Shown here one piece after another: positions 2,006 to 26,626 of a stretch of DNA of 64,000 nucleotides (position 1 is the stretch's first letter; the number at the start of each line of letters is the position of its first letter). The stretch is taken from the UHGV virus genome UHGV-0275551; one strand, written 5' to 3'. Made by a program: the position numbers and the translations under genes. The notes under the pieces were generated by a model. That model was not told the DNA's origin and made no database searches. It was given only the letters and a program-made list of their open reading frames with translations. Origin of the DNA: a virus.

Positions 2006-7389
<5,384 letters not shown>

Positions 7390-18994: not shown

Positions 18995-19055
18995 AAAAAA
19001 GCCCTGTCTAAAAATACTCTTCGGTAGCGAAAGGAAGAATACTTATAGCAGGGCA
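18995..19055 (-). terminator. rho-independent terminator after the tRNA array
   Basis: long imperfect hairpin closed by GCCCTG/CAGGGC, followed on the minus strand by TTTTTT. Confidence 0.45.
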
Positions 19056-19091
19056 TTATTATTATTTTAATTGAGAGAGAGTAAAATAACT

Positions 19092-19167
19092 TGGAGAATC
19101 CGAAGGGACTCGAACCCTTATAAACCTGTTTTGCAGACAGGCACATAGCCGTTTCTGTCACGGATTC
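19092..19167 (-). tRNA. tRNA-Cys (anticodon GCA)
   Basis: hand-folded cloverleaf; 7-bp acceptor gaatccg/cggattc, T-arm aaggg-actcgaa-ccctt on plus strand; sense anticodon loop CTGCAAA; CCA encoded. Confidence 0.6.
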
Positions 19168-19171
19168 AAAT

Positions 19172-19264
19172 TGGAGGAAGATACCAGACTTGAACTGGTA
19201 CACCGATTTCTCAGCTACTGGCAGTTTAGCAAACTGCTCCCTTACCTTTTAGGGTTAATCTTCC
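19172..19264 (-). tRNA. tRNA-Ser (anticodon GCT), class II
   Basis: 93 nt with long variable arm; acceptor ggaagat/atcttcc; sense anticodon arm GCAGT-TTGCTAA-ACTGC. Confidence 0.55.
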
Positions 19265-19266
19265 AT

Positions 19267-20001
19267 TTATTTCTGTAATGCGTTCTTCATTTCTGGTGTT
19301 GCAATAGTGTCAATTACACCAGTTTTACAAGCATCATCAAACCAGTCTGGTAAGATACCTGCTAAGAACCCATTGATATTCGTTTTAAGGTACTCTGCAA
19401 TAAGAGCAGCTTCTTCTTCAATCATCTGCACAACTTCATCTGCATAAGCTGTAATTTTTGAAATACCTTCATTAATCTTACTAACAGCTTGCTCAGCTAA
19501 ATCAGAAATAGTATCAAGACCTTTGTCAATAGCATCTTGTAAGTCACTTAACACACCATTAACACTATCTAGTGCACTGTTAATCGTATCAATAGCTTTT
19601 TGACCATACTCTGTAGCAACACCCATAATACCACTAAATGGTGTACAGCCAACTTGTTCACCTGCTGCACCCATAACATTAGAGTAACCTTTTGCTACCT
19701 GCATACGTGATGAAAACTCATCAATGGACTTTTGACCGTAATCTGTTAGTGTTTTGGTAGTTGATGTAGTGCTTGTCAGACTCGTGGTAAAGCTGTTAAG
19801 CAGAACTGTTGTAAGTCCAGCAGCAACAAGCTTATCCTTTACTGTAGGGTCTGATACAGAGCTAATAGAGCTTACAAGTGATGTAGAGGCAGCTACGGTT
19901 CCACCGAGAACTGCTGCACCAGTAATAAGGGGGTTAGAAAACCCTTTACCGGTTTTTAAGAGATTGAAAATCTCCTTACCTTGTTCTGTCATCTCTTTCA
20001 T
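19267..20001 (-). CDS. hypothetical Ser/Thr-rich protein embedded in tRNA array
   Basis: track ORF 19267..20064 shortened to the ATG at 20001 because the longer form overlaps tRNA-Phe; weak AAAGGTG RBS. Confidence 0.4.
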   Translation of the reverse strand: MKEMTEQGKEIFNLLKTGKGFSNPLITGAAVLGGTVAASTSLVSSISSVSDPTVKDKLVAAGLTTVLLNSFTTSLTSTTSTTKTLTDYGQKSIDEFSSRMQVAKGYSNVMGAAGEQVGCTPFSGIMGVATEYGQKAIDTINSALDSVNGVLSDLQDAIDKGLDTISDLAEQAVSKINEGISKITAYADEVVQMIEEEAALIAEYLKTNINGFLAGILPDWFDDACKTGVIDTIATPEMKNALQK

Positions 20002-20019
20002 TAAGCACCTTTGAAATTG

Positions 20020-20094
20020 GTAGTCCAGTGGGATTTGAACCCTCTTCTCATGTTTTTCAGACACGCGCTTTAACCATATAAGCTACTTGGACTA
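20020..20094 (-). tRNA. tRNA-Phe (anticodon GAA)
   Basis: acceptor tagtcca/tggacta perfect; sense anticodon arm CGTGT-CTGAAAA-ACATG; T-stem has one mismatch; CCA apparently incomplete. Confidence 0.5.
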
Positions 20095-20099
20095 TAAAT

Positions 20100-20175
20100 T
20101 GGGGTGACCTACGGGATTTGAACCCGTATAGACCATGTTCACAGCATGGGTCATTACCATTTATGATAAGGCCAC
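20100..20175 (-). tRNA. tRNA-His (anticodon GTG)
   Basis: sense anticodon arm CCATG-CTGTGAA-CATGG; discriminator C73; perfect T-arm. Confidence 0.6.
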
Positions 20176-20206
20176 ATTTAAGGACTCTCGTAAGAATCCT
20201 TAGAAG

Positions 20207-20282
20207 TGGCAGCGGCATAAGGATTTGAACCTTAATAGGACAGCTTCAGAGACTGCTGCATTGCCAGTTATGCTATACCGCT
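20207..20282 (-). tRNA. tRNA-Gln (anticodon CTG)
   Basis: sense anticodon loop CTCTGAA, stem with two G:U pairs; G73 discriminator; D-stem GCAT/ATGC. Confidence 0.5.
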
Positions 20283-20287
20283 AAATT

Positions 20288-20366
20288 TGGTACTCCATAT
20301 CGGATTCGAACCGATACATAACACAGATTTTAAGTCTGGCCTCTCTGCCAATTGGAGTAATGGAGC
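20288..20366 (-). tRNA. tRNA with Leu anticodon TAA, short variable loop
   Basis: 79 nt; sense anticodon arm CCAGA-CTTAAAA-TCTGT; Leu-type D-loop CAATTGGCAGAG; variable region about 7 nt; A73. Confidence 0.45.
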
Positions 20367-20368
20367 AT

Positions 20369-20444
20369 TGGCGGGGGATGTTGGAATTGAACCAACTTCT
20401 TCGATTTCAAAGACCGAGGTTTTAACCTTGTAAACTAATCCCCT
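20369..20444 (-). tRNA. tRNA-Gln (anticodon TTG)
   Basis: sense anticodon arm TCGGT-CTTTGAA-ATCGA; T-arm gttgg-aattgaa-ccaac; G73. Confidence 0.55.
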
Positions 20445-20452
20445 TTAAATCT

Positions 20453-21010
20453 TTACTTTCTTAGTGGATGAATAAAGAATGCCAACATAACTCTTTCCCT
20501 TGAAAATGCTCTTTCTTCTGGGACAACACTTTTAAGTTTCCACCCAACATAAATTCTCCAGTAAAATTGTTTACCAAAGATTTTGATTGACGGCACAAAA
20601 GCGAATAATCCCCAAGCATTACTGTTCCACATTAGGAGATAACCAGTCTGATTATCTTCAGGGTTAGAACTTACGTTGATATTACCTTTCCACTTAGTAA
20701 CATCTTTTACATCTCTTCCTAATACATGGTAAGAGAAGTTATAAGCTTTGTTTCTCCAGAGCCATCCAACTCTCTGCATGTAGACACCAAGCTTACCAAT
20801 CTTTCTAATCTTAGCCCATCGTTTGATATGACCTGCATCACCATCAATTGGGTTGTCATAAGTCTCCATCCATCTGAACCCGAAAGGTAAGTGTCCTTTC
20901 TTCTCACTGTAGAATGGAACTACAAAAGGTGCTAAGATAACTGCTAAGATTGCTGCAAATGGCTCTAACAAAGCTAAGAAAATCCATGAAGCATACTTTA
21001 AGTATCTCAT
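20453..21010 (-). CDS. hypothetical membrane protein embedded in tRNA array
   Basis: 185-aa track ORF; hydrophobic N terminus (IFLALLEPFAAILAVILAPFVVPF). Confidence 0.4.
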   Translation of the reverse strand: MRYLKYASWIFLALLEPFAAILAVILAPFVVPFYSEKKGHLPFGFRWMETYDNPIDGDAGHIKRWAKIRKIGKLGVYMQRVGWLWRNKAYNFSYHVLGRDVKDVTKWKGNINVSSNPEDNQTGYLLMWNSNAWGLFAFVPSIKIFGKQFYWRIYVGWKLKSVVPEERAFSRERVMLAFFIHPLRK

Positions 21011-21249
21011 TGTCTAATCCTCGTAAGGAGGTAAATGTTATTATTCGTTTCTAAACCTTCTGGTAAAACTGTCTCAAAAATAACACTCTTCAGATGTCTA
21101 CCACCAAAACAATCACGTATAAATCTTTCTACTCTAGCGGGGTCACATAAGTATCCCACTTTTAAGAAAATGTGGTGTTCAACACCAATGACCCTGACAA
21201 ACTCAATACTCTCACAGTTTTCATGTTCAACTACTGTTAATGTTTGCAT
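21007..21249 (-). CDS. hypothetical protein
   Basis: 80-aa track ORF, stop overlaps start of 20453..21010 ORF. Confidence 0.35.
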   Translation of the reverse strand: MQTLTVVEHENCESIEFVRVIGVEHHIFLKVGYLCDPARVERFIRDCFGGRHLKSVIFETVLPEGLETNNNIYLLTRIRQ

Positions 21250-21266
21250 AGTATCACCTTTTTATC

Positions 21267-21342
21267 TGGCGCAGGATAAGGGATTCGAACCCCTATTAAC
21301 AGCTTCGTAGACTGTTGCTCTTTCCATTTGAACTAATCCTGC
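21267..21342 (-). tRNA. tRNA-Arg (anticodon ACG)
   Basis: acceptor gcaggat/atcctgc perfect; sense anticodon arm ACAGT-CTACGAA-GCTGT. Confidence 0.55.
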
Positions 21343-21347
21343 AAAAT

Positions 21348-21425
21348 TGGTGTTCCAAGACGGATTCGAACCGTCACTAATACAAGGTTTGAGCTTGCAT
21401 CCTCTGCCAATTGGGATACTGGAAC
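21348..21425 (-). tRNA. tRNA with Leu anticodon CAA, short variable loop
   Basis: 78 nt; sense anticodon arm GCAAG-CTCAAAC-CTTGT; Leu-type D-loop CAATTGGCAGAG; perfect T-arm gacgg-attcgaa-ccgtc. Confidence 0.45.
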
Positions 21426-21426
21426 A

Positions 21427-21501
21427 TGGTACTCACTAAAGGACTTGAACCTTTTTCTTCATCTTGTAAGGGTGATGTTTTACCATATAAACTAAGCGAG
21501 T
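21427..21501 (-). tRNA. tRNA-Val (anticodon TAC)
   Basis: sense anticodon loop CTTACAA; T-arm aaagg-acttgaa-ccttt; D-stem gttt/aaac. Confidence 0.5.
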
Positions 21502-21502
21502 A

Positions 21503-21597
21503 TGGAAGAGGTCTGAAGTTGTGCCGCTAACTCAACTTCGTGGAATTTGTTACGGTCTTCAGTTGACTCAAAGCGGTCTTTCACTTGACCTCTGAAT
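21503..21597 (-). other. 95-nt structured spacer, possibly a degenerate tRNA or small RNA
   Basis: tgg + 7-bp terminal inverted repeat agaggtc/gacctct like an acceptor stem, internal 7-bp hairpin gaagttg/caacttc, but no canonical T-loop. Confidence 0.25.
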
Positions 21598-21673
21598 TGG
21601 TGCTCCCACAAGGACTCGAACCCTGATAAGTTGCTTACAAGGCAACCGTAATAACCAATTATACGATAGGAGC
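21598..21673 (-). tRNA. tRNA-Thr (anticodon TGT)
   Basis: sense anticodon arm GTTGC-CTTGTAA-GCAAC perfect; acceptor with one G:U. Confidence 0.6.
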
Positions 21674-21680
21674 ATTAATT

Positions 21681-21755
21681 TGGAGCATCCAGAGGGAATC
21701 GAACCCTCAACCTCAGTTTGGAAGACTGTAATTTTCCCGTTTAAACTATGGATGC
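21681..21755 (-). tRNA. tRNA-Gly (anticodon TCC)
   Basis: sense anticodon loop CTTCCAA; perfect T-arm gaggg-aatcgaa-ccctc; acceptor gcatcca/tggatgc. Confidence 0.5.
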
Positions 21756-21761
21756 ACTAAT

Positions 21762-21837
21762 TGGTGGAGTCACTGAGAATTGAACTCAGTTCCCAAGTTT
21801 GCAAAACTCGAATTTTAACCATATAAACTATGACCCC
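21762..21837 (-). tRNA. tRNA-Ala (anticodon TGC)
   Basis: sense anticodon arm CGAGT-TTTGCAA-ACTTG; G3:U70 pair and A73 as expected for Ala. Confidence 0.6.
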
Positions 21838-21843
21838 ATTGTT

Positions 21844-21919
21844 TGGTACAGGTGGAGGGAATTGAACCCATCGTCTTACTGATTAAGAGTCAGCCGCATA
21901 ACCATTTTGCTACACCTGC
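21844..21919 (-). tRNA. tRNA-Lys (anticodon CTT), weak T-stem
   Basis: best parse gives sense anticodon arm GCTGA-CTCTTAA-TCAGT; T-stem only 3 clean pairs; an alternative parse gave a poorer loop. Confidence 0.4.
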
Positions 21920-21926
21920 ATTAATT

Positions 21927-22003
21927 TGGTACACCTAGAGAGATTCGAACTCACACTGAGCAGATTCTAAGTCTGCTGCCTCTACCAGTTGGGCTATAGG
22001 TGC
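21927..22003 (-). tRNA. tRNA with Leu anticodon TAG, short variable loop
   Basis: 77 nt; sense anticodon arm GCAGA-CTTAGAA-TCTGC perfect; Leu-type D-arm GCC-CAACTGGTAGA-GGC; 5-nt variable loop. Confidence 0.5.
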
Positions 22004-22083
22004 ATTAAATCTTTTTAGAGAACTTCTAAGAACCTAAGCAACAAGGTTCCACAACAAGCTGTAATAACCTTAGAAGCCCTCTA

Positions 22084-22104
22084 AAAAGACCTAAATAGGT
22101 CTTT
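22084..22104 (-). terminator. hairpin terminator-like element downstream of the 22247..22588 ORF
   Basis: aaagacc-taaat-aggtcttt hairpin; short T-run on the minus strand. Confidence 0.35.
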
Positions 22105-22246
22105 GCATAGTCTTGTTTAATCCGGTGACTAGAACCTTTGGAGAGCTTGATATTATCTCTTCTCCGTGACACCTACTAGGTGCTTTGACAGTGTACGACA
22201 ATACACGAGGGATAAACCGACAATGCGAACAAGCATGGACGGAGTA

Positions 22247-22588
22247 TTAAATCTTTAAGCTAAGTTCAGTCTTAGACTTGATATCTTTAGCTTTGTAGAT
22301 GATGACTTTATCAAGTGGTTCAATGTAAACAGCTAAGTAATCAACTTGAGAGTTATCAAAATTCATTATTCTATTTTCATTCTTGTTAGAACGAACTCTT
22401 TTCAGTTGCACTCTCCAAAGTTCACCTCTTTTGACTGAGGTTGATTTTACCTCAACAGTCTCAATCAAACCATCTTTGTGAACTAGAAAGTCATACTTTG
22501 CATTATCTGTAGCTGGTGAATACACTTCATAACCTCTTTTGAGGAAAGCTAATTGTGTAGCAATTTCACCTACTGAACCTTTCTTCAT
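22247..22588 (-). CDS. PD-(D/E)XK-type nuclease-like protein, putative
   Basis: track ORF 22247..22768 shortened to ATG 22588 (strong AGGTGG RBS; longer form overlaps tRNA-Ser); motif YDFLVHKDG...IETVEVKS fits a D...E.K nuclease core. Confidence 0.4.
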   Translation of the reverse strand: MKKGSVGEIATQLAFLKRGYEVYSPATDNAKYDFLVHKDGLIETVEVKSTSVKRGELWRVQLKRVRSNKNENRIMNFDNSQVDYLAVYIEPLDKVIIYKAKDIKSKTELSLKI

Positions 22589-22611
22589 AATCACCACCTT
22601 AAAAATCATTT

Positions 22612-22698
22612 TGGCAGAGAGTGCAGGAGTCGAACCCGTACCGTTTCCAGCAGCACCAGTTTTCAAGGCTGGTTGGTCTCCGTTGACCGCCACTCTCT
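22612..22698 (-). tRNA. tRNA-Ser (anticodon TGA), class II
   Basis: 87 nt; acceptor agagagt/actctct perfect; sense anticodon loop CTTGAAA; long variable arm. Confidence 0.55.
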
Positions 22699-22711
22699 CC
22701 GAAACAATCTT

Positions 22712-22794
22712 TGGCATGGGACGGAGGAGTTGAACCCCTTTGAAACGGTTTTGGAGGCCGTTGCTCATGCCTTAGAGTCTTAACATCGTCCCAT
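22712..22794 (-). tRNA. tRNA with anticodon CCA (Trp?), atypical 83 nt
   Basis: perfect acceptor atgggac/gtcccat, G73, sense anticodon arm ACGGC-CTCCAAA-ACCGT, but the D-region is about 7 nt too long. Confidence 0.35.
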
Positions 22795-22936
22795 ATTATA
22801 ATTCGAAGCTTACCCTGTTATCTCAACACTGTCAAGCTTCTTCTCAGATTATTTACATGTTCTGGAAAACATGAGATACAGACCACCTCCCTACAGGAAG
22901 ACCCACTAAGGCCGTCTAAGTAATCTGCTAACTATT

Positions 22937-23013
22937 TGGTACACCCTACAGGATTCGAACCTGTAACTAACGATTTAGAAGACCGTTGCTCTATCCAATT
23001 GAACTAAGGGTGC
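22937..23013 (-). tRNA. tRNA-Arg (anticodon TCT)
   Basis: sense anticodon arm ACGGT-CTTCTAA-ATCGT; perfect T-arm acagg-attcgaa-cctgt. Confidence 0.6.
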
Positions 23014-23259
23014 ATTATCTTTAAAGACTCTCTTAGAAAGCCCTTAAAGATGCCCACCTTATTAATCATACCGTGGGCGAGTACGCCAAATTCTTTGATG
23101 AGGGATTGGAAGACCTCACTGGTGTTTAGCCTATCAAGCTACTGCCAGAAAAACATTGTCGTTTGCATTTATTTTAAATTTGCAAAATAGACGCTACGCA
23201 ACGAAAACTAAGGTTACTATAAAGTAGTCACATCTCAATGTCAACAACTTTATTGAAAT

Positions 23260-23335
23260 TGGTACTGGTAGGTGGAATCGAACCACCGATGTTCCCTTAT
23301 CAGGGGAGTGTTATAACCTTCTTAACTATACCAGC
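23260..23335 (-). tRNA. tRNA-Ile (anticodon GAT)
   Basis: sense anticodon loop CTGATAA; perfect T-arm ggtgg-aatcgaa-ccacc. Confidence 0.6.
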
Positions 23336-23336
23336 T

Positions 23337-23413
23337 TGGAGGTTCAGATGGGAATCGAACCCACATTCATAGGGCTTATGAGACCCTTGCATTACCTTAT
23401 CTGCGACTGAACC
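23337..23413 (-). tRNA. tRNA with anticodon CAT (Met or Ile2 type)
   Basis: sense anticodon arm AGGGT-CTCATAA-GCCCT; acceptor ggttcag/ctgaacc perfect. Confidence 0.55.
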
Positions 23414-23417
23414 ATAT

Positions 23418-23493
23418 TGGTAGAAGTGGAGGGATTCGAACCCATCGCCTGTCAGATTAAAAGTCTGCCGCATCACCATTCTGCTACACTTCC
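23418..23493 (-). tRNA. tRNA-Lys (anticodon TTT)
   Basis: sense anticodon loop CTTTTAA; T-arm gaggg-attcgaa-cccat. Confidence 0.55.
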
Positions 23494-23496
23494 ATT

Positions 23497-23640
23497 AAAT
23501 TATCTTTGTAGATAAGCTACCCAGACTTGCTTAAGGTCTGTAGCGATGTGCCTTTTTGGGTTTAAATCTAGAATTTACCCTTTCACCCTTTGTGGTCGCA
23601 TACTCACAGGTAAGCTTAATAACTTATCTACAAAGATAAT
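23497..23640. repeat. 19-bp inverted repeat bracketing about 105 bp inside a tRNA spacer
   Basis: aattatctttgtagataag (left arm) and its exact reverse complement cttatctacaaagataatt (right arm). Confidence 0.55.
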
Positions 23641-23785
23641 TACCAGACCGTTGTTTATCATCTTAAGTGCTACCATTACACCAACTCGACATCTGCCGAG
23701 TGAAGGAATCGAACCTTCGCCTTTTCTTTACCGAGAAATAGATTGTTTAAGTTTTGCTGTAAACGGTCTTCTGTAAATTTGTTGA
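23641..23785 (-). repeat. spacer unit (family shared with 24180-24262 and 24340-24430) containing a tRNA-like T-arm fragment
   Basis: begins taccagaccg, ends ttgctgtaaacggtcttctgtaaatttg; internal gaagg-aatcgaa-ccttc hairpin followed by ttttcttt. Confidence 0.4.
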
Positions 23786-23922
23786 GCCAGACCAAGTTTT
23801 AAATTTTTCAAAATTAAATTGGCTTGAAATTTCATACATTCTTGCTGTATTTGGTCTTCTGCTCCTTTAAAGAATACTCGTAAGAACTCTTTAAGGGAGG
23901 GGCTAAATAGCCCTCTCAAAAT

Positions 23923-24000
23923 TGGCGGTTATGAAGGGATTTGAACCCTCATCATCTCCCGTGACAGGGGAGTATTTTAACCAGATTAAACTACATAACC
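23923..24000 (-). tRNA. tRNA-Asp (anticodon GTC)
   Basis: sense anticodon arm CTCCC-CTGTCAC-GGGAG perfect; acceptor ggttatg/cataacc perfect. Confidence 0.6.
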
Positions 24001-24006
24001 TTTATT

Positions 24007-24094
24007 TGGTGTGCCGTGTAGGAGTCGAACCTACCGAGTCTCAATGACAAGGGATTTACAGTCCCCACCGCTACCATCTACGGGATAACGACAC
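24007..24094 (-). tRNA. tRNA-Tyr (anticodon GTA), class II
   Basis: 88 nt; sense anticodon loop CTGTAAA; perfect T-arm gtagg-agtcgaa-cctac; long variable arm. Confidence 0.55.
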
Positions 24095-24102
24095 ATTTAA
24101 TT

Positions 24103-24179
24103 TGGCGGTTAGTCAGGGATTCGAACCCTGTGCCATTCGCTTAACAGGCGACCGCACATACCTTATGTGCTTCCTAACC
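24103..24179 (-). tRNA. tRNA-Asn (anticodon GTT)
   Basis: sense anticodon loop CTGTTAA; D-stem GCAC/GTGC; perfect T-arm caggg-attcgaa-ccctg. Confidence 0.55.
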
Positions 24180-24262
24180 ATGTTTAGTATTACCAGACCG
24201 TATCTTTCAATTTTTCCGCTAAAAATTTAATAAATATTGCTGTAAACGGTCTTCTGTAAATT
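24180..24262 (-). repeat. spacer unit between tRNA-Asn and the second CAT tRNA
   Basis: shares taccagaccg start and ttgctgtaaacggtcttctgtaaatttgg end with the 23641-23785 unit. Confidence 0.45.
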
Positions 24263-24339
24263 TGGAGGCGGGTGCAGGAGTCGAACCTGCCGATACCATG
24301 CTAATGAGACATGTGAGACGCCCTTTCTCTATACCCGCA
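24263..24339 (-). tRNA. tRNA with anticodon CAT, pair 1:72 mismatched (initiator-like?)
   Basis: perfect T-arm gcagg-agtcgaa-cctgc; sense anticodon loop CTCATTA (position 37 is T); acceptor pair 1:72 is T:C. Confidence 0.45.
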
Positions 24340-24430
24340 ATTCTTAATGACCAGACCAAATCTCTTCTTTGTCCGATTTACCTTCAGATGAATAAGATTA
24401 AGTTTGCTGTAATTGGTCTTCTGTCAAAAC
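24340..24430 (-). repeat. spacer unit between the CAT tRNA and tRNA-Glu
   Basis: accagaccaaa start and tttgctgtaattggtcttctgtcaaaactgg end, degenerate copy of the spacer family. Confidence 0.4.
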
Positions 24431-24508
24431 TGGCGTTCCAGAAGGGATTTGAACCCTCAGATATCCACTTTGAAAGAGTGGTGACTTTACCGTTTTGTCT
24501 ACTGGAAC
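24431..24508 (-). tRNA. tRNA-Glu (anticodon TTC)
   Basis: sense anticodon arm CCACT-CTTTCAA-AGTGG perfect; acceptor gttccag/ctggaac perfect. Confidence 0.6.
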
Positions 24509-24515
24509 ATTAATT

Positions 24516-24592
24516 TGGTCTCTGTTGGAGGACTTGAACCTCCGGCCTTACCGCCCCAAACGGAACGCTCTACCAAGCTGAGCTAAACAGAG
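24516..24592 (-). tRNA. tRNA-Pro (anticodon TGG)
   Basis: sense anticodon loop TTTGGGG; perfect T-arm ggagg-acttgaa-cctcc; D-arm GCTC-AGCTTGGTA-GAGC. Confidence 0.55.
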
Positions 24593-24716
24593 ATAAACTT
24601 TTCAAACTCTATGTAACCACTTTAACATTATTTTTTAGTGGTTGTCAAGAACTTTTTTAAAATATTTTTCAGTATCTTAGAAAAGCTCTCATTTCGTTTC
24701 TATGTAGAACATATTA

Positions 24717-24757: not shown

Positions 24758-26173
24758 TTACCAGATATAACGGTCAATCATTACTGCTTTGAGCATTACA
24801 CTGATTGGGTCAAACTTCTCACCACCAAGCAGAGCTTTTAAAGTGGCTGGAGAGAACCCTGATACCATTGCTACACCGTTATCCTTAACAGATACTTCGC
24901 AAGTACCATTACGGTTTGCTAAGTACCAGAATACCAGTTGTGGCATCTCATATCCAGCTTTTTTGTACTTACTCTGAATTGCTTCAAAGTTTGTACGACC
25001 GTTAGCCCCATCAACCTGATTAAACTCCATATCGGAGAAGATGATAAGCTTACTTGGCATATCTTTCTGAGTCAAGTTGTTTCTTTTGCCTGTCTCAAGA
25101 ATACGGTCAAAAGCTGCTTGTAAGTTAGTTGAGCCATATTCAACGTGTCGCATCACCTGACGATGACGGTTTCGTAAATCACCACTCAGTTCGATGAAGT
25201 GAGGGTTTGTTGAATAAACCATCAACTCATTCTTAAAGCAACCTGTATTGCGTTCTGCTACATACAAGGCAAGTGATACACCAATATCCAGAGCAGTAAT
25301 GGAGCCAAAATTCACCCAAGACATTGAACTTGATACATCAGACATACACAAGATGTTTTCACCTTCTGCCATCCAGTTTGGTAGTGCTTTCCACTGCTCA
25401 TTAGCAACATCTGCATTACCATGCTTGACAGATTTAATCACATCGTATGGGTAAACAGCACCAGCATTAATCTTAGCCTCACCTTTTGATAAGGACTCAA
25501 TGTAAGCTTTGTAACGTTCTCCATCCTTACGGTTAAACAGTTTTTGGTAACGTGCAGCAGCAAGTGAGGGAACCTTACTGTAGTCAATCTTGCCAAACTC
25601 ATTAGCAGAGATTTTTTGCTCAACTGTATCAGATAGTGCAGATAACAGTGTGCGGTACTCTTTCTCGCTCAAGTTGGCAAACTTGCAGAAACGTTTTACA
25701 AACTGCTTATGACGTGGTTTGACTCGTGGTAACCACTTAGCCGCCAAACCTGCTGTTGCAGGGTCTAGTAATGCTGCTTCTAAATGTTTGAAGGCATCTG
25801 TCTCGAAACAAGTACCCACGAAGATTTTGAAGTCATCAAAACGACCAAGTTCTGCAATCTTATCCATAATGCGAAGAACCTGTGTAGGCTCTAAAACTTT
25901 ATCTTCAATTGCTTGAAGCAAAACAGTTCTGAAGGCTTTACGCTCACCCATACCTTCTCGTACATCTCGCATATGAAGCAAAATACGAACTGCAACATCA
26001 ACATCCTCACGCAAAGCTTTGTAGAACAAGTCTGGTAAGATTTCTACATTGCTACGGCTTGAACCAGCAGCTTTGTAAAAGTCTACAAGAGCAGACATTG
26101 ATGAAGTATGGTTTACAGCACCATTTTCAGTTCGACCTGCATGAAGGTGCGCATGTTTAAATAATTCGCTCAT
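24758..26173 (-). CDS. vWA-domain protein with about 280-aa helical N-terminal domain
   Basis: 471 aa; MIDAS-like DxSxS (ILCMSDVSSSMSW) and KLIIFSDMEF strand typical of von Willebrand A domains. Confidence 0.55.
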   Translation of the reverse strand: MSELFKHAHLHAGRTENGAVNHTSSMSALVDFYKAAGSSRSNVEILPDLFYKALREDVDVAVRILLHMRDVREGMGERKAFRTVLLQAIEDKVLEPTQVLRIMDKIAELGRFDDFKIFVGTCFETDAFKHLEAALLDPATAGLAAKWLPRVKPRHKQFVKRFCKFANLSEKEYRTLLSALSDTVEQKISANEFGKIDYSKVPSLAAARYQKLFNRKDGERYKAYIESLSKGEAKINAGAVYPYDVIKSVKHGNADVANEQWKALPNWMAEGENILCMSDVSSSMSWVNFGSITALDIGVSLALYVAERNTGCFKNELMVYSTNPHFIELSGDLRNRHRQVMRHVEYGSTNLQAAFDRILETGKRNNLTQKDMPSKLIIFSDMEFNQVDGANGRTNFEAIQSKYKKAGYEMPQLVFWYLANRNGTCEVSVKDNGVAMVSGFSPATLKALLGGEKFDPISVMLKAVMIDRYIW

Positions 26174-26254: not shown

Positions 26255-26626
26255 TTATTTTTTAAGAGTCGCTACAGCAGAGAACGTTGGTTTGTTATCT
26301 GTCTGTTGTTGACCACCATTATCAGGAGTCTTCTTAGTGTCTGCTGCAAGTGCTTTCATCTCACCTGCTGAGTGAGTAAAGATAGTTTTACCTACCTCAA
26401 TCATGCTCTTGATGGTTACGTCGTCTGTGTTTAACCCGAACTCTGCAAGCTTAGCAGCATCCCTTGTAACAATCGCTTCAAATAACTTTGCAGCAAACTC
26501 AGCAGAGTTGTCAATGGTCAGTTGAGCTTTTACAAGTGAGCTTTTGTTGCGAGAGCCTTTTGGTCTTCCAGATGGGTTTCCAGATTGGCCTTTTTTAAAC
26601 TGGCCTTTGTTTGTTCTGTTTTTCAT
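26255..26626 (-). CDS. hypothetical basic protein
   Basis: 123-aa track ORF; N-terminal KGQSGNPSGRPKGSRNK motif; divergent from the plus-strand cluster. Confidence 0.4.
   Translation of the reverse strand: MKNRTNKGQFKKGQSGNPSGRPKGSRNKSSLVKAQLTIDNSAEFAAKLFEAIVTRDAAKLAEFGLNTDDVTIKSMIEVGKTIFTHSAGEMKALAADTKKTPDNGGQQQTDNKPTFSAVATLKK

What the first reader, a model, noticed from the sequence alone, without database searches (positions are those of the whole stretch)
19092..24592. Very large tRNA array (27 hand-folded genes) decoding all 20 amino acids
By hand-folding I find 27 minus-strand tRNA genes in about 5.5 kb, often separated by only 1-7 nt. The set includes rare-codon anticodons useful for an AT-rich genome in a GC-richer host (TCT, TAA, TAG, GAT, CAT x2). 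Such arrays can also protect against host anticodon nucleases or translation shut-off, but that role is not shown here. Anticodon and end assignments need software confirmation.
Basis: partly seen in the sequence, partly recalled or inferred. Interest (0 to 1): 0.5.

Follow-up and report, generated by a model that had tools for sequence, protein, structure and literature searches.

The report
Felix O1-type phage tRNA array
This is the well-known transfer-RNA gene cluster of a Felix O1-like phage, so the finding as written is ordinary, but the same cluster also holds an unannotated odd tryptophan tRNA and four unannotated small RNAs that look like partners of the Ro60-like protein encoded next door.

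Summary
ARAGORN finds 26 minus-strand tRNA genes at exactly 19092-24592, and 15 of 26 junctions are 8 nt or less. They cover 19 amino acids. The 27th gene, needed for "all 20", is a non-canonical tRNA-Trp(CCA)-like gene at 22715-22797. Software misses it and none of 60 sampled GenBank relatives annotates a tRNA there. Compensatory base changes across relatives show it is a conserved structured gene.

The window is a Felixounavirus. The same array is annotated in hundreds of genomes and was published for Felix O1 in 2010 with the codon-usage argument, so the finding as given is already known.

U34 tRNAs match A-ending codons that the phage over-uses (AGA 14x, CTA 4.5x, CCA 3x). G34 tRNAs match codons it uses less than E. 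coli. One CAT tRNA is initiator-like. The set reads as a near-complete minimal decoding set.

The new part lies in the spacers. Four unannotated RNAs (23640-24426) share a bulged terminal helix and a UACAGCAA motif, and one carries a YrlA-type tRNA-like domain. The gene just upstream (24758-26173, DUF2828) has a Ro60 fold. The same RNA signature sits beside DUF2828 genes in diverse phages: 36 hits on the gene's strand, 2 on the opposite strand, about 0.6 in shuffles.

The parts
24516..24592 (-). tRNA-Pro (TGG)
   Evidence: ARAGORN; RF00005 57.7 bits
24431..24508 (-). tRNA-Glu (TTC)
   Evidence: 60.4 bits
24348..24426 (-). E1, a Y-RNA-like element: outer helix UGAC/GUCA, 5' bulge AGA, inner helix AGACCAA/UUGGUCU, then UUACAGCAA, 3' bulge G
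24263..24339 (-). tRNA (CAT), initiator-like: acceptor UGCGGGU, U1xC72 mismatch, U37
   Evidence: ARAGORN; RF00005 28.5 bits against a threshold of 29; comparison with E. coli metY
24190..24259 (-). E2, a Y-RNA-like element: UUAC/GUAA, AGA, AGACCGU/ACGGUCU, UUACAGCAA
24103..24179 (-). tRNA-Asn (GTT)
   Evidence: 48 bits
24007..24094 (-). tRNA-Tyr (GTA), long variable arm
   Evidence: ARAGORN; only tRNA-Sec model 29.6 bits; flagged as a pseudogene by tRNAscan in Felix O1 (PMC3185647)
23923..24000 (-). tRNA-Asp (GTC)
   Evidence: 67.4 bits
23784..23864 (-). E3, a Y-RNA-like element: GAGC/GCUC, AGA, AGACCAA/UUGGUCU, AUACAGCAA
23640..23776 (-). E4, a YrlA-like element: the same terminal module as E1-E3, enclosing a V hairpin, a T arm (GAAGGUUCGAUUCCUUC), a closed acceptor-like hairpin (ACUCGGC-AGAU-GUCGAGU) and a D arm (GUGUAAUGGUAGCAC)
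   Evidence: 94.7% of cells paired, 11 pairs changed on both sides
23418..23493 (-). tRNA-Lys (TTT)
   Evidence: 54.4 bits
23337..23413 (-). tRNA (CAT), elongator type (G1-C72); Met or Ile2 not resolved
   Evidence: 55.6 bits
23260..23335 (-). tRNA-Ile (GAT)
   Evidence: 62.3 bits
23216..23244 (-). sigma-70-like promoter TTGACA-17-TATAGT (11 of 12), upstream of tRNA-Arg(TCT)
   Evidence: consensus match only
22937..23013 (-). tRNA-Arg (TCT)
   Evidence: 64.1 bits
22715..22797 (-). Non-canonical tRNA-Trp(CCA)-like gene: 8-bp acceptor plus 4-bp T stem, a conserved extra GAUGUUAAGA before a 3-bp D stem, a 31x39 mismatch, G73 and encoded CCA. Unannotated in relatives
22612..22698 (-). tRNA-Ser (TGA)
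   Evidence: ARAGORN; tRNA-Sec model 34.4 bits
22247..22588 (-). ORF of 113 aa, PD-(D/E)XK endonuclease family. Absent from typing phage 1, so probably a mobile insertion
   Evidence: Pfam PDDEXK_5 E = 3.9e-17
21927..22003 (-). tRNA-Leu (TAG)
   Evidence: 57.3 bits
21844..21919 (-). tRNA-Lys (CTT)
   Evidence: 56.9 bits
21762..21837 (-). tRNA-Ala (TGC)
   Evidence: 56.9 bits
21681..21755 (-). tRNA-Gly (TCC)
   Evidence: 59.6 bits
21598..21673 (-). tRNA-Thr (TGT)
   Evidence: 59.5 bits
21427..21501 (-). tRNA-Val (TAC)
   Evidence: 60 bits
21348..21425 (-). tRNA-Leu (CAA)
   Evidence: 44 bits
21267..21342 (-). tRNA-Arg (ACG)
   Evidence: 59.5 bits
20453..21249 (-). Two small ORFs inside the array: 20453-21010 (DUF7338) and 21007-21249 (80 aa, no Pfam hit)
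20369..20444 (-). tRNA-Gln (TTG)
   Evidence: 56.6 bits
20288..20366 (-). tRNA-Leu (TAA)
   Evidence: 47.5 bits
20207..20282 (-). tRNA-Gln (CTG)
   Evidence: 57 bits
20100..20175 (-). tRNA-His (GTG)
   Evidence: 53.3 bits
20018..20093 (-). tRNA-Phe (GAA)
   Evidence: 45 bits
19267..20001 (-). ORF inside the array, DUF7217
   Evidence: E = 1.3e-88
19172..19264 (-). tRNA-Ser (GCT)
   Evidence: 46.2 bits
19092..19167 (-). tRNA-Cys (GCA)
   Evidence: 56.3 bits
24619..24739 (-). Two sigma-70-like promoters (TTGACA-17-TAATAT and TTGACA-18-TAAAGT) between the Ro60-like gene and the first tRNA
   Evidence: consensus matches only
24758..26173 (-). Ro60-fold protein gene (471 aa; Pfam DUF2828 + DUF7788; helical-repeat N-terminal part plus C-terminal alpha/beta vWA-type domain with a DVSGS MIDAS motif), immediately upstream of the array on the same strand

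Best explanation
The region is the tRNA gene array of a Felixounavirus, a Felix O1-like myovirus of enterobacteria. It holds 26 canonical tRNA genes and one non-canonical tRNA-Trp(CCA)-like gene. All are on one strand, all encode their CCA ends, and they lie behind several host-type promoters. By inference they are made as multi-gene transcripts that host RNase P and 3' nucleases cut into mature tRNAs.

The set has one U34 tRNA per four-codon box, all two-codon boxes, an initiator-like tRNA and a Trp-like tRNA. That makes it a near-complete minimal decoding set tuned to the phage's A/T-ending codons. The most likely role has two parts. It boosts translation of phage messages whose codons fit the host tRNA pool poorly. 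It also keeps translation going if host tRNAs are depleted or cleaved during infection.

The array is physically merged with a second module. A Ro60-fold protein gene (DUF2828) lies directly upstream. Four small Y-RNA-like transcripts (E1-E4) sit in the tRNA spacers, and E4 carries a YrlA-type tRNA-like domain. By inference the E RNAs are released by the same processing and bind the Ro60-like protein through their bulged terminal helix and UACAGCAA motif.

Shown here: gene identities, conservation, covariation, the protein fold, the genomic association and the codon statistics. Inferred: expression, processing, aminoacylation, RNA-protein binding and any anti-defence role.
For: Identity: 402 phage records match 19000-24700, and 191 of them cover at least 80% of it. 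Listed hits are 94-98% identical, and these Felixounavirus genomes carry the same 26 tRNAs in the same order. The Felix O1 array and its codon-usage rationale were published in 2010 (PMC3185647).

tRNAs: ARAGORN finds 26 and Rfam passes 23 at its gathering score.

Trp-like gene: it is conserved in 232 records. Its cloverleaf is 99.4% paired with 7 compensatory pairs, including changes seen in Yersinia phage P778. Its anticodon arm, A1-U72 and G73 match E. coli trpT.

Codon usage.

Ro60 fold: the AlphaFold model has pLDDT 86.7 and pTM 0.87. The top 10 Foldseek hits in the PDB are all Ro60 or TROVE structures, with E from 1e-8 to 2e-6 and TM up to 0.68. D279, S281 and S283 of the DVSGS motif are invariant.

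E RNAs: there are 4 copies in the window against 0.05 expected. Positions left free in the search pattern covary between paralogs and orthologs. The E4 structure is 94.7% paired, against 43-50% in slid controls. The layout V - T - acceptor-like hairpin - D is that of YrlA (PMC4201824).

Association: across 75 diverse DUF2828 loci the signature occurs 36 times on the gene's strand, 2 times on the opposite strand, and 0.6 times on average in shuffles. 27 of the 36 lie within 1 kb of the gene. A 143-kb phage contig has at least 4 such RNAs starting 87 nt after the DUF2828 stop codon.

Literature: the Bas63 (Felixounavirus) gp130 was noted as Ro60-like and as a counter to the ppl defence system (bioRxiv 10.1101/2024.10.10.617714).
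Against: The Trp-like gene departs strongly from a standard tRNA: a 3-bp D stem, 7 extra nucleotides, a 31x39 mismatch and an 8/4 acceptor/T arrangement. It may not work in translation.

The E RNAs lack the GNCGAAN0-1G motif that marks Rsr-binding Y RNAs. No Rfam family matches them. The protein does not match Pfam TROVE or any PDB sequence.

Only 23 of 75 distant loci score with my strict signature. That signature was designed from the elements themselves.

PhageMaP found Bas63 tRNA genes mostly non-essential on laboratory strains.
Confidence: 0.85

Rival explanations
1. The array exists purely for codon-usage compensation. It supplies only the tRNAs for codons that are common in the AT-rich phage and rare in the host, and has no role in resisting tRNA loss.
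For: Cognate codons are enriched in the phage (p = 0.015), with AGA 14x, CTA 4.5x and CCA 3x. The Felix O1 paper argues the same.
Against: About half of the tRNAs (all G34 species, plus Met, the initiator-like gene and the Trp-like gene) pair with codons that are not enriched or have no synonyms. The set is complete rather than selective. Felixounaviruses infect a host that lacks two serine tRNAs.
Confidence: 0.25
2. The Trp-like gene at 22715-22797 is not a working tRNA. It could be a decaying pseudogene, or a tRNA-shaped decoy or regulatory RNA.
For: ARAGORN does not predict it, and Rfam's tRNA model RF00005 gives no hit (tRNA-Sec model, 23 bits). None of 60 sampled GenBank records annotates a tRNA there. 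The D region is aberrant and the 31x39 mismatch is always present.
Against: A pseudogene would not keep 7 compensatory pairs, U33-CCA-A37, G73 and an encoded CCA out to a phage whose Ro60-like protein is only 53% identical. Even the odd extra segment GAUGUUAAGAC is invariant. That argues for selection and so excludes decay, but it does not exclude a decoy role.
Confidence: 0.35
3. E1-E4 are not Ro60 partners. They are processing spacers such as RNase III or RNase E sites, remnants of dead tRNAs, or a small mobile repeat that spread within the array.
For: They sit exactly between tRNAs. E4 contains tRNA-derived arms. They lack the known Rsr-binding motif. No binding data exist.
Against: Dead remnants would not show compensatory changes in both terminal helices and in the acceptor-like hairpin. 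The same motif recurs next to DUF2828 genes in unrelated phage backbones, on the same strand, and sometimes with no tRNA between it and the gene (L050 9860-9924 lies 76 nt upstream of the gene). The architecture equals that of YrlA. A processing role and a Ro60-binding role are not mutually exclusive.
Confidence: 0.2

Closest known systems
tRNA gene cluster of Salmonella phage Felix O1 and other Felixounavirus genomes (Whichard et al. 2010, PMC3185647; E. coli O157 typing phage 1, KP869100)
   Same: Same genes in the same order at 94-98% nucleotide identity, with the same flanking terminase and DUF2828 genes.
   Different: Nothing essential differs. Published and deposited annotations list 17-26 tRNAs depending on the software used. 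They omit the Trp-like gene and E1-E4. This window carries a PD-(D/E)XK endonuclease ORF that typing phage 1 lacks.
Large tRNA arrays of T5-like, T4-like/KVP40-like phages and mycobacteriophages
   Same: Dense one-strand arrays with short spacers, near-complete anticodon sets, interspersed small ORFs and homing endonucleases. The proposed roles are codon adaptation and escape from tRNA-targeting defences (papers cited).
   Different: A different phage lineage. Here the array is fused to a Ro60-like/Y-like RNA module. KVP40-like Vibrio phage phi-pp2 also has a DUF2828 gene near its array, with candidate elements.
Bacterial and phage Ro60 (Rsr) with Y RNAs YrlA and YrlB (Chen et al. 2014, PMC4201824; Thermus phage phiLo Ro60-Yrl, PMC12135203)
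   Same: A ring-shaped Ro60-fold protein with a vWA/MIDAS domain, encoded next to several small RNAs whose 5' and 3' ends pair in a bulged stem. One RNA carries a V - T - acceptor-like hairpin - D tRNA mimic. In some variants the hairpin loop reads N73-CCA, which recalls M. smegmatis YrlA; that RNA is cut by RNase P and receives CCA.
   Different: The protein is 11-16% identical to solved Ro60 structures and matches Pfam DUF2828/DUF7788, not TROVE. The RNAs have an A-rich 5' bulge, an RG-started helix and UACAGCAA in place of GNCGAAN0-1G / CGAA. They are embedded in a tRNA array. No Rfam match.
E. coli tRNA-Trp (trpT) and tRNA-fMet (metY)
   Same: The Trp-like gene shares the anticodon arm CGG[C/U]CUCCAAAACCG, A1-U72 and G73 with trpT. 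The CAT gene at 24263-24339 shares the acceptor NGCGGG and a 1x72 mismatch with tRNAfMet.
   Different: The Trp-like gene has an extra 7 nt, a 3-bp D stem and a 4-bp T stem. The initiator-like gene lacks the three G-C pairs of the initiator anticodon stem and has U37.

Membership tests
Canonical tRNA (Rfam RF00005 / ARAGORN) | Predicted by tRNA software at its default threshold | tested here: met
   26 genes by ARAGORN. 23 pass the RF00005 gathering score. Ser(UGA), Tyr and the initiator-like Met fall below Rfam's threshold.
Canonical tRNA, applied to the Trp-like gene 22715-22797 | Standard cloverleaf (7-bp acceptor, 4-bp D stem, 5-bp anticodon stem with a 7-nt loop, 5-bp T stem) recognised by software | tested here: not met
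   Not found by ARAGORN at 100, 90, 80 or 70% thresholds. No RF00005 hit at E <= 10. 8/4 acceptor/T arrangement, 3-bp D stem, 7 extra nt, 31x39 mismatch.
Functional tRNA-Trp, applied to the Trp-like gene | CCA anticodon flanked by U33 and A37, G73 discriminator, CCA end, structure kept by selection | tested here: met
   All are present and invariant in 9 distinct sequences. 7 pairs have changes on both sides. The TrpRS identity rules are from my own knowledge, not tested.
Functional tRNA-Trp, applied to the Trp-like gene | Aminoacylation with Trp and use on the ribosome | not testable with these tools
   Needs charging assays or tRNA sequencing.
Felixounavirus tRNA array | Nucleotide identity and gene order shared with named Felixounavirus genomes | tested here: met
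   Listed hits are 94-98% identical, covering 90-100% of the region, with the same 26 tRNAs in the same order.
Ro60 / TROVE protein family (ORF 24758-26173) | Match to Pfam TROVE (PF05731) or sequence similarity to solved Ro60 structures | tested here: not met
   Pfam gives only DUF2828 and DUF7788 at E <= 0.01. No PDB hit by sequence or by profile.
Ro60 / TROVE protein family (ORF 24758-26173) | Ro60 fold: helical-repeat ring plus a vWA domain with a MIDAS motif | tested here: met
   The model has pTM 0.87. The top 10 PDB matches are all Ro60 or TROVE over the full length, with TM up to 0.68. DVSGS is invariant.
Y RNA / YrlA | Encoded next to the Ro60-type gene | tested here: met
   E1-E4 lie 330-1120 nt downstream of the gene on the same strand. 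Across 75 distant loci, 27 of 36 signature hits lie within 1 kb of the gene.
Y RNA / YrlA | 5' and 3' ends pair in a bulged stem | tested here: met
   A 4-bp outer helix, 3-nt and 1-nt bulges, and a 7-8-bp inner helix. Both helices covary.
Y RNA / YrlA | GNCGAAN0-1G (or CGAA) Ro-binding motif near the 5' end (Chen 2014) | tested here: not met
   The motif is absent. The conserved 5' sequence is A-N-A + RGAYY.. + UACAGCAA.
Y RNA / YrlA | tRNA-like domain in the order V - T - acceptor-like hairpin - D | tested here: met
   Met for E4 only. The T, acceptor-like and D helices are 95-100% paired, and three different acceptor-like hairpin sequences are seen. E1-E3 lack the domain, as YrlB does.
Y RNA / YrlA | Physical binding to the Ro60-type protein | not testable with these tools
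   Needs RNA immunoprecipitation or gel-shift assays.
Any Rfam 15 family (E1-E4) | Covariance-model match | tested here: not met
   No family matches beyond a partial tRNA T-arm hit of 14.9 bits.

The most novel reading that the evidence does not exclude
The array is a composite locus. A divergent Ro60-fold protein (DUF2828) has its own, so far undescribed, family of Y-like RNAs. Their hallmark is an A-rich bulge, an RG-started helix and a UACAGCAA motif, with YrlA-like and YrlB-like forms. These RNAs are hidden in tRNA-array spacers or beside the gene in many unrelated large phages. They would be the RNA partners that the PhageMaP authors guessed at for the anti-ppl factor gp130. In addition, Ounavirinae keep a structurally aberrant tRNA-Trp that all annotation pipelines miss.
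Probability: 0.6. Interest if true: 0.62.

Novelty: already known. Interest (0 to 1): 0.4.

Why it matters
The tRNA array itself adds nothing new. It is a textbook feature of Felix O1-like phages, which are used in Salmonella typing and phage therapy.

Three things matter. First, standard tools under-call the array. The Trp-like gene is missing from every annotation sampled, so statements such as "17-23 tRNAs, no Trp" in comparative papers are software artefacts.

Second, the make-up of the set argues for self-sufficiency in decoding. That is relevant to tRNA-targeting defences and to the safety of recoded organisms.

Third, the spacers hold concrete candidates, with coordinates, for the RNA partners of a phage Ro60-like protein that is reported to counter a defence system. 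This turns a published guess ("some tRNA genes are possibly Y RNAs") into a direct experiment. It also suggests that a large protein family of unknown function (more than 3,300 homologues) works as an RNA-protein particle.

Tried and rejected
1. Looser ARAGORN thresholds (90, 80 and 70%, and intron mode) to recover the 27th tRNA. They added only antisense or overlapping false calls and never found the Trp-like gene.

2. Readings of the CAGAAGACC...GGUCUGG elements that I considered and dropped:
- Hairpin or hammerhead-type ribozyme: no Rfam hit and the loop sizes are wrong.
- Kink-turn: no tandem G.A pairs.
- Archaeal-type bulge-helix-bulge splice site or a truly permuted tRNA gene: there is no anticodon arm, and the acceptor is capped by a loop in most variants.
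- Two-piece tmRNA: the weak Rfam tmRNA hits at 23014-23318 only reflect tRNA-Ile, and there is no tag reading frame.
- Mobile miniature repeat: the interiors are orthologous and stable in position.

3. Rfam at E <= 10 on E4 alone gave nothing.

4. Sequence and profile searches of the DUF2828 protein against PDB sequences gave nothing. Only the fold comparison worked.

5. 11 of the 40 IMG/VR loci that share the 19-nt word have no similarity to the window and no complete element. I treated them as chance or partial matches and did not follow them.

6. The helix 27-30/118-121 of E4, the anticodon-stem-like CUUA/UAAG, is not conserved (76% paired, no covariation). I do not claim it.

7. A first loose scan for Y-like elements was too noisy (114 hits against 70 and 68), and so was a one-mismatch scan (48 against 17 and 18). 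Only the stricter signature separated signal from background.

8. I did not build a covariance model. A model of the terminal module alone would have had to absorb 20-120 nt of unmodelled interior, and I judged its scores marginal.

9. I could not decide whether the CAT gene at 23337-23413 is Met or Ile2.

Full report
**1. The observation**

ARAGORN on the whole window finds 26 tRNA genes. All are on the minus strand. Rfam's tRNA model passes its gathering score for 23 of them, at 44-67 bits. The other three are real but atypical:
- Ser(UGA) and Tyr(GUA) have long variable arms and match only the tRNA-Sec model below threshold.
- The CAT gene at 24263-24339 scores 28.5 bits against a threshold of 29.

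Fifteen of 26 junctions are 1-8 nt, and tRNA sequence fills 2,112 of 5,501 bases. The listed anticodons TCT, TAA, TAG, GAT and CAT x2 are all present. The 26 genes cover 19 amino acids. Trp is missing.

**2. The 27th gene**

A weak tRNA-Sec hit (23 bits, repeated) marks 22718-22792. Read by eye and folded, this stretch has:
- an 8-bp acceptor stem, AUGGGACG/CGUCCCAU;
- G73 and an encoded CCA;
- a 4-bp T stem;
- an anticodon stem of 5 pairs plus a C31xA39 mismatch;
- the loop CUCCAAA, giving anticodon CCA;
- a 3-bp D stem preceded by seven extra nucleotides.

ARAGORN does not report it at any threshold tried. RF00005 has no hit. The sequence is present in 232 phage records, and none of 60 records sampled across the ranking annotates a tRNA there.

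It is not a decaying remnant. Across nine distinct sequences, including Citrobacter phage Michonne, phage SUSP2 and Yersinia phage P778, 99.4% of cells are paired. Seven pairs change on both sides, four of them in the anticodon stem. Slid controls give 0-1. U33-CCA-A37, G73, CCA and even the odd segment GAUGUUAAGAC never change. The anticodon arm, A1-U72 and G73 match E. coli trpT.

**3. Identity of the region**

The 5.7-kb stretch matches 402 phage records. The listed hits are 94-98% identical and cover 90-100% of the query in Felixounavirus genomes. E. coli O157 typing phage 1 and phage Tribble annotate the same 26 tRNAs in the same order, between the same flanking genes.

The Felix O1 paper of 2010 reported 22 tRNAs by tRNAscan-SE, two of them flagged as pseudogenes. 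It already argued that several tRNAs compensate for phage-host codon differences (PMC3185647). A later comparison reports 17-23 tRNAs per genome (PMC8300805). The finding as written is therefore already known.

**4. Codon usage**

I compared 63 window ORFs (15,764 codons) with 65 annotated E. coli K-12 genes (15,142 codons). Codons that pair exactly with a phage tRNA are relatively enriched in the phage: mean log2 ratio +0.44 against -0.44, p = 0.015.

The signal comes from U34 tRNAs and A-ending codons:

| Codon | Phage/host ratio |
|---|---|
| AGA | 14x |
| CTA | 4.5x |
| CCA | 3.0x |
| ACA | 2.9x |
| TCA | 2.6x |
| TTA | 2.6x |
| GGA | 2.2x |
| GCA | 1.8x |

The G34 tRNAs (Phe, His, Asn, Asp, Tyr, Cys, Ile-GAT, Ser-GCT) pair with NNC codons that the phage uses less than the host, although they also read NNU by wobble. 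Met and Trp have no synonyms. The composition is one U34 tRNA per four-codon box plus every two-codon box. It is that of a minimal complete decoding set.

Of the two CAT genes, 24263-24339 resembles E. coli tRNAfMet in its acceptor stem. It keeps a 1x72 mismatch in three lineages: UxC in the window, CxC in SUSP2 and AxA in P778. It lacks the initiator's three G-C pairs and has U37. The other CAT gene, 23337-23413, is an elongator. I could not tell Met from Ile2.

Literature context: Felixounavirus REP05-12 infect the recoded strain Syn61-delta-3 (PMC12269064). Bas63 tRNAs are mostly non-essential on laboratory strains.

**5. What else is in the array**

Reading the spacers showed a repeated sequence, CAGAAGACCnnUUACAGCAA, with GGUCUGG downstream. 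It occurs four times in the window, against 0.05 expected. The four elements are:

| Element | Coordinates (minus strand) |
|---|---|
| E1 | 24348-24426 |
| E2 | 24190-24259 |
| E3 | 23784-23864 |
| E4 | 23640-23776 |

All four have the same ends. There is a 4-bp outer helix, a 5' bulge AGA facing a 3' bulge G, a 7-8-bp inner helix, and then single-stranded UACAGCAA.

The outer helix differs between paralogs by compensatory changes: UGAC/GUCA, UUAC/GUAA and GAGC/GCUC. So do the inner positions: AA/UU against GU/AC. I collected 58 unique elements with a pattern that left these positions free. In them the outer pairs are 97-100% paired with up to four standard pair types, and the two variable inner pairs are 97-98% paired with up to four standard pair types.

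E4 encloses four structures in this order:
- a small hairpin;
- a T arm, GAAGGUUCGAUUCCUUC;
- a closed acceptor-like hairpin;
- a D arm, GUGUAAUGGUAGCAC.

Relatives carry three unrelated sequences for the acceptor-like hairpin: ACUCGGC-AGAU-GUCGAGU, ACACG-UUACGG-CGUGU and ACCCUUC-GCCAAACA-GAAGGGU. The helix is preserved in all three. On 12 sequences the structure is 94.7% paired with 11 pairs changed on both sides, against 43-50% and 3-4 in slid controls. The G.U pairs fit only the minus-strand transcript. Rfam has no family for any of the four.

**6. The neighbouring gene**

The ORF just upstream on the same strand (24758-26173, 471 aa) is annotated "RNA-binding protein, DUF2828" in Michonne, SUSP2 and P778. 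Pfam gives DUF2828 plus DUF7788. It has more than 3,340 homologues, many in large tRNA-rich phages such as Vibrio phage phi-pp2.

Sequence and profile searches of PDB sequences find nothing. An AlphaFold model built from 37 sequences has pLDDT 86.7 and pTM 0.87. Its ten best Foldseek matches in the PDB are all Ro60 or TROVE structures over the full length: Xenopus Ro60, D. radiodurans Rsr and Thermus phage phiLo Ro60, with E from 1e-8 to 2e-6, TM up to 0.68 and 11-16% identity. D279, S281 and S283 of a DVSGS MIDAS-type motif are invariant.

Ro60 proteins bind Y RNAs through a bulged terminal stem. Bacterial YrlA RNAs carry a tRNA mimic in the order V - T - acceptor-like hairpin - D (PMC4201824). 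That is exactly the layout of E4. E1-E3 correspond to YrlB-type RNAs, which lack the mimic.

The known Ro-binding motif GNCGAAN0-1G is absent here. This is a resemblance in architecture, not family membership.

**7. Is the link general?**

Yersinia phage P778, whose protein is 53% identical, has three such elements. Their helices have covaried (UGC-ACA-GGACUGU-UUACAGCAA...ACAGUCC-A-GCA) and one holds a T arm.

A 143-kb phage contig, whose protein is 51% identical, has a promoter and at least four elements starting 87 nt after the DUF2828 stop codon. Two of them have T, acceptor-like and D arms. They are followed by 14 tRNAs.

In 75 further IMG/VR loci (39-48% identity) I applied a strict signature. 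It requires at least 3 bp of outer helix, a 1-4 nt bulge, a 7-bp helix with G at its second position, a 2-4 nt linker, and T[ACT]CAGCAA. The results:
- 36 hits on the gene's strand;
- 2 hits on the opposite strand;
- 0-2 hits (mean 0.6) in ten shuffles;
- 23 of 75 loci are positive;
- 27 of 36 hits lie within 1 kb of the gene, and none lies inside it.

The window has exactly four hits, all in the array. Fifty kilobases of E. coli have none.

The signature was designed from the elements, so the number of positive loci is a rough lower bound. The strand and shuffle contrasts do not depend on that.

**8. Prior knowledge of this part**

A 2024 preprint on Bas63, a Felixounavirus, noted that gp130 resembles Ro60, lies upstream of the tRNAs and counters the ppl defence system. 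[quoted passage not shown]

Searches of the held library for Ro60 with phage or DUF2828, for Bas63 with Ro60, and for YrlA with phage found no paper that identifies the RNAs. Phage Y RNAs described so far are next to annotated TROVE proteins and carry the CGAA motif.

My evidence points to the unannotated spacer elements as the candidates, not the annotated tRNAs. The library does not hold most subscription papers, so prior description cannot be excluded.

**9. Verdict**

Its interpretation is partly right. The object is a known feature of a known phage genus, so as a finding it ranks low.

The added value of this second look has two parts. One is a conserved but aberrant tRNA-Trp that annotation pipelines miss. 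The other is a probable Ro60-like/Y-like RNA module woven into the array. That module is supported by fold, covariation and cross-phage association, but not yet by any experiment.

Noticed in passing
window 21502-21597 (minus strand), between tRNA-Thr and tRNA-Val: A 96-nt spacer folds well (-26.9 kcal/mol, z = -3.1). It has a terminal helix CAGAGGUC/GACCUCU(G) and an internal CUGAAGACCGUAACAA that recalls the E-element 5' motif. It is conserved in Michonne and SUSP2. It may be a fifth, divergent member of the family or a separate small RNA.
   Followed up: partly
window 23494-23641 (minus strand), between E4 and tRNA-Lys(TTT): A 22-bp inverted repeat (95% complementary) encloses about 100 nt. 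In Michonne and SUSP2 the stem sequence differs but still pairs (CUCUUUGCAGUGACUUA / UAGGUUACUGCAAAGAUG). This suggests another structured RNA or an RNase III-type processing stem.
   Followed up: partly
window 22004-22246 and 23014-23259 (minus strand): Long non-coding spacers. The first has a 26-nt inverted repeat (22005-22030 / 22069-22094). The second has the best promoter match in the region. Rfam gives only weak tmRNA-type hits there, which seem to reflect the adjacent tRNA-Ile.
   Followed up: no
window 20176-20205 and 23862-23895 (minus strand): Two similar small hairpins share the loop UUCUUACGAG (aaggauUCUUACGAGaguccuu and aaagagUUCUUACGAGuauucuuu), just upstream of tRNA-His and of E3. 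A related sequence occurs in Yersinia phage P778. They may be processing or termination signals.
   Followed up: no
window 22247-22588 (minus strand): A PD-(D/E)XK endonuclease ORF (Pfam PDDEXK_5) lies inside the array. It is absent from typing phage 1, and Michonne has an HNH endonuclease at the same place. Vibrio phage phi-pp2 also has a PDDEXK_5 gene in its tRNA region (L049 1979-2428). These look like mobile endonucleases that target tRNA arrays.
   Followed up: partly
L044 (Michonne) 4215-4335 and L043 (P778) 4730-4845: An approximately 120-nt tRNA-like gene that is absent from the window. It has acceptor GGUCAAG/CUUGACU with GCCA, a normal T arm and a large insertion in the body. No tRNA is annotated there and ARAGORN does not predict it.
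   Followed up: no
L044 3653-3733 and L043 4487-4568: Another conserved spacer RNA that the window lacks. Its core is GAACAyrUGCGCGGCUGGAAACACCCACUCAA, with covarying terminal stems (GCCCCUU/AAGGGGC against GCCUCU/AGAGGC).
   Followed up: no
L050 16225-19138: In one distant phage the DUF2828 gene lies about 5 kb from an RNA ligase and a polynucleotide kinase-phosphatase, an RNA-repair pair. This fits the view that Ro60-type proteins accompany RNA-repair systems.
   Followed up: no
L047 15393-16652: An IS605-type OrfB / Cas12f-like (TnpB) gene sits inside the tRNA array of the 143-kb phage contig.
   Followed up: no
window 26255-26626 (minus strand): The ORF upstream of the Ro60-like gene matches Pfam DUF5681 (E = 2.3e-14). 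The same domain occurs next to the terminase in the distant locus L050.
   Followed up: no
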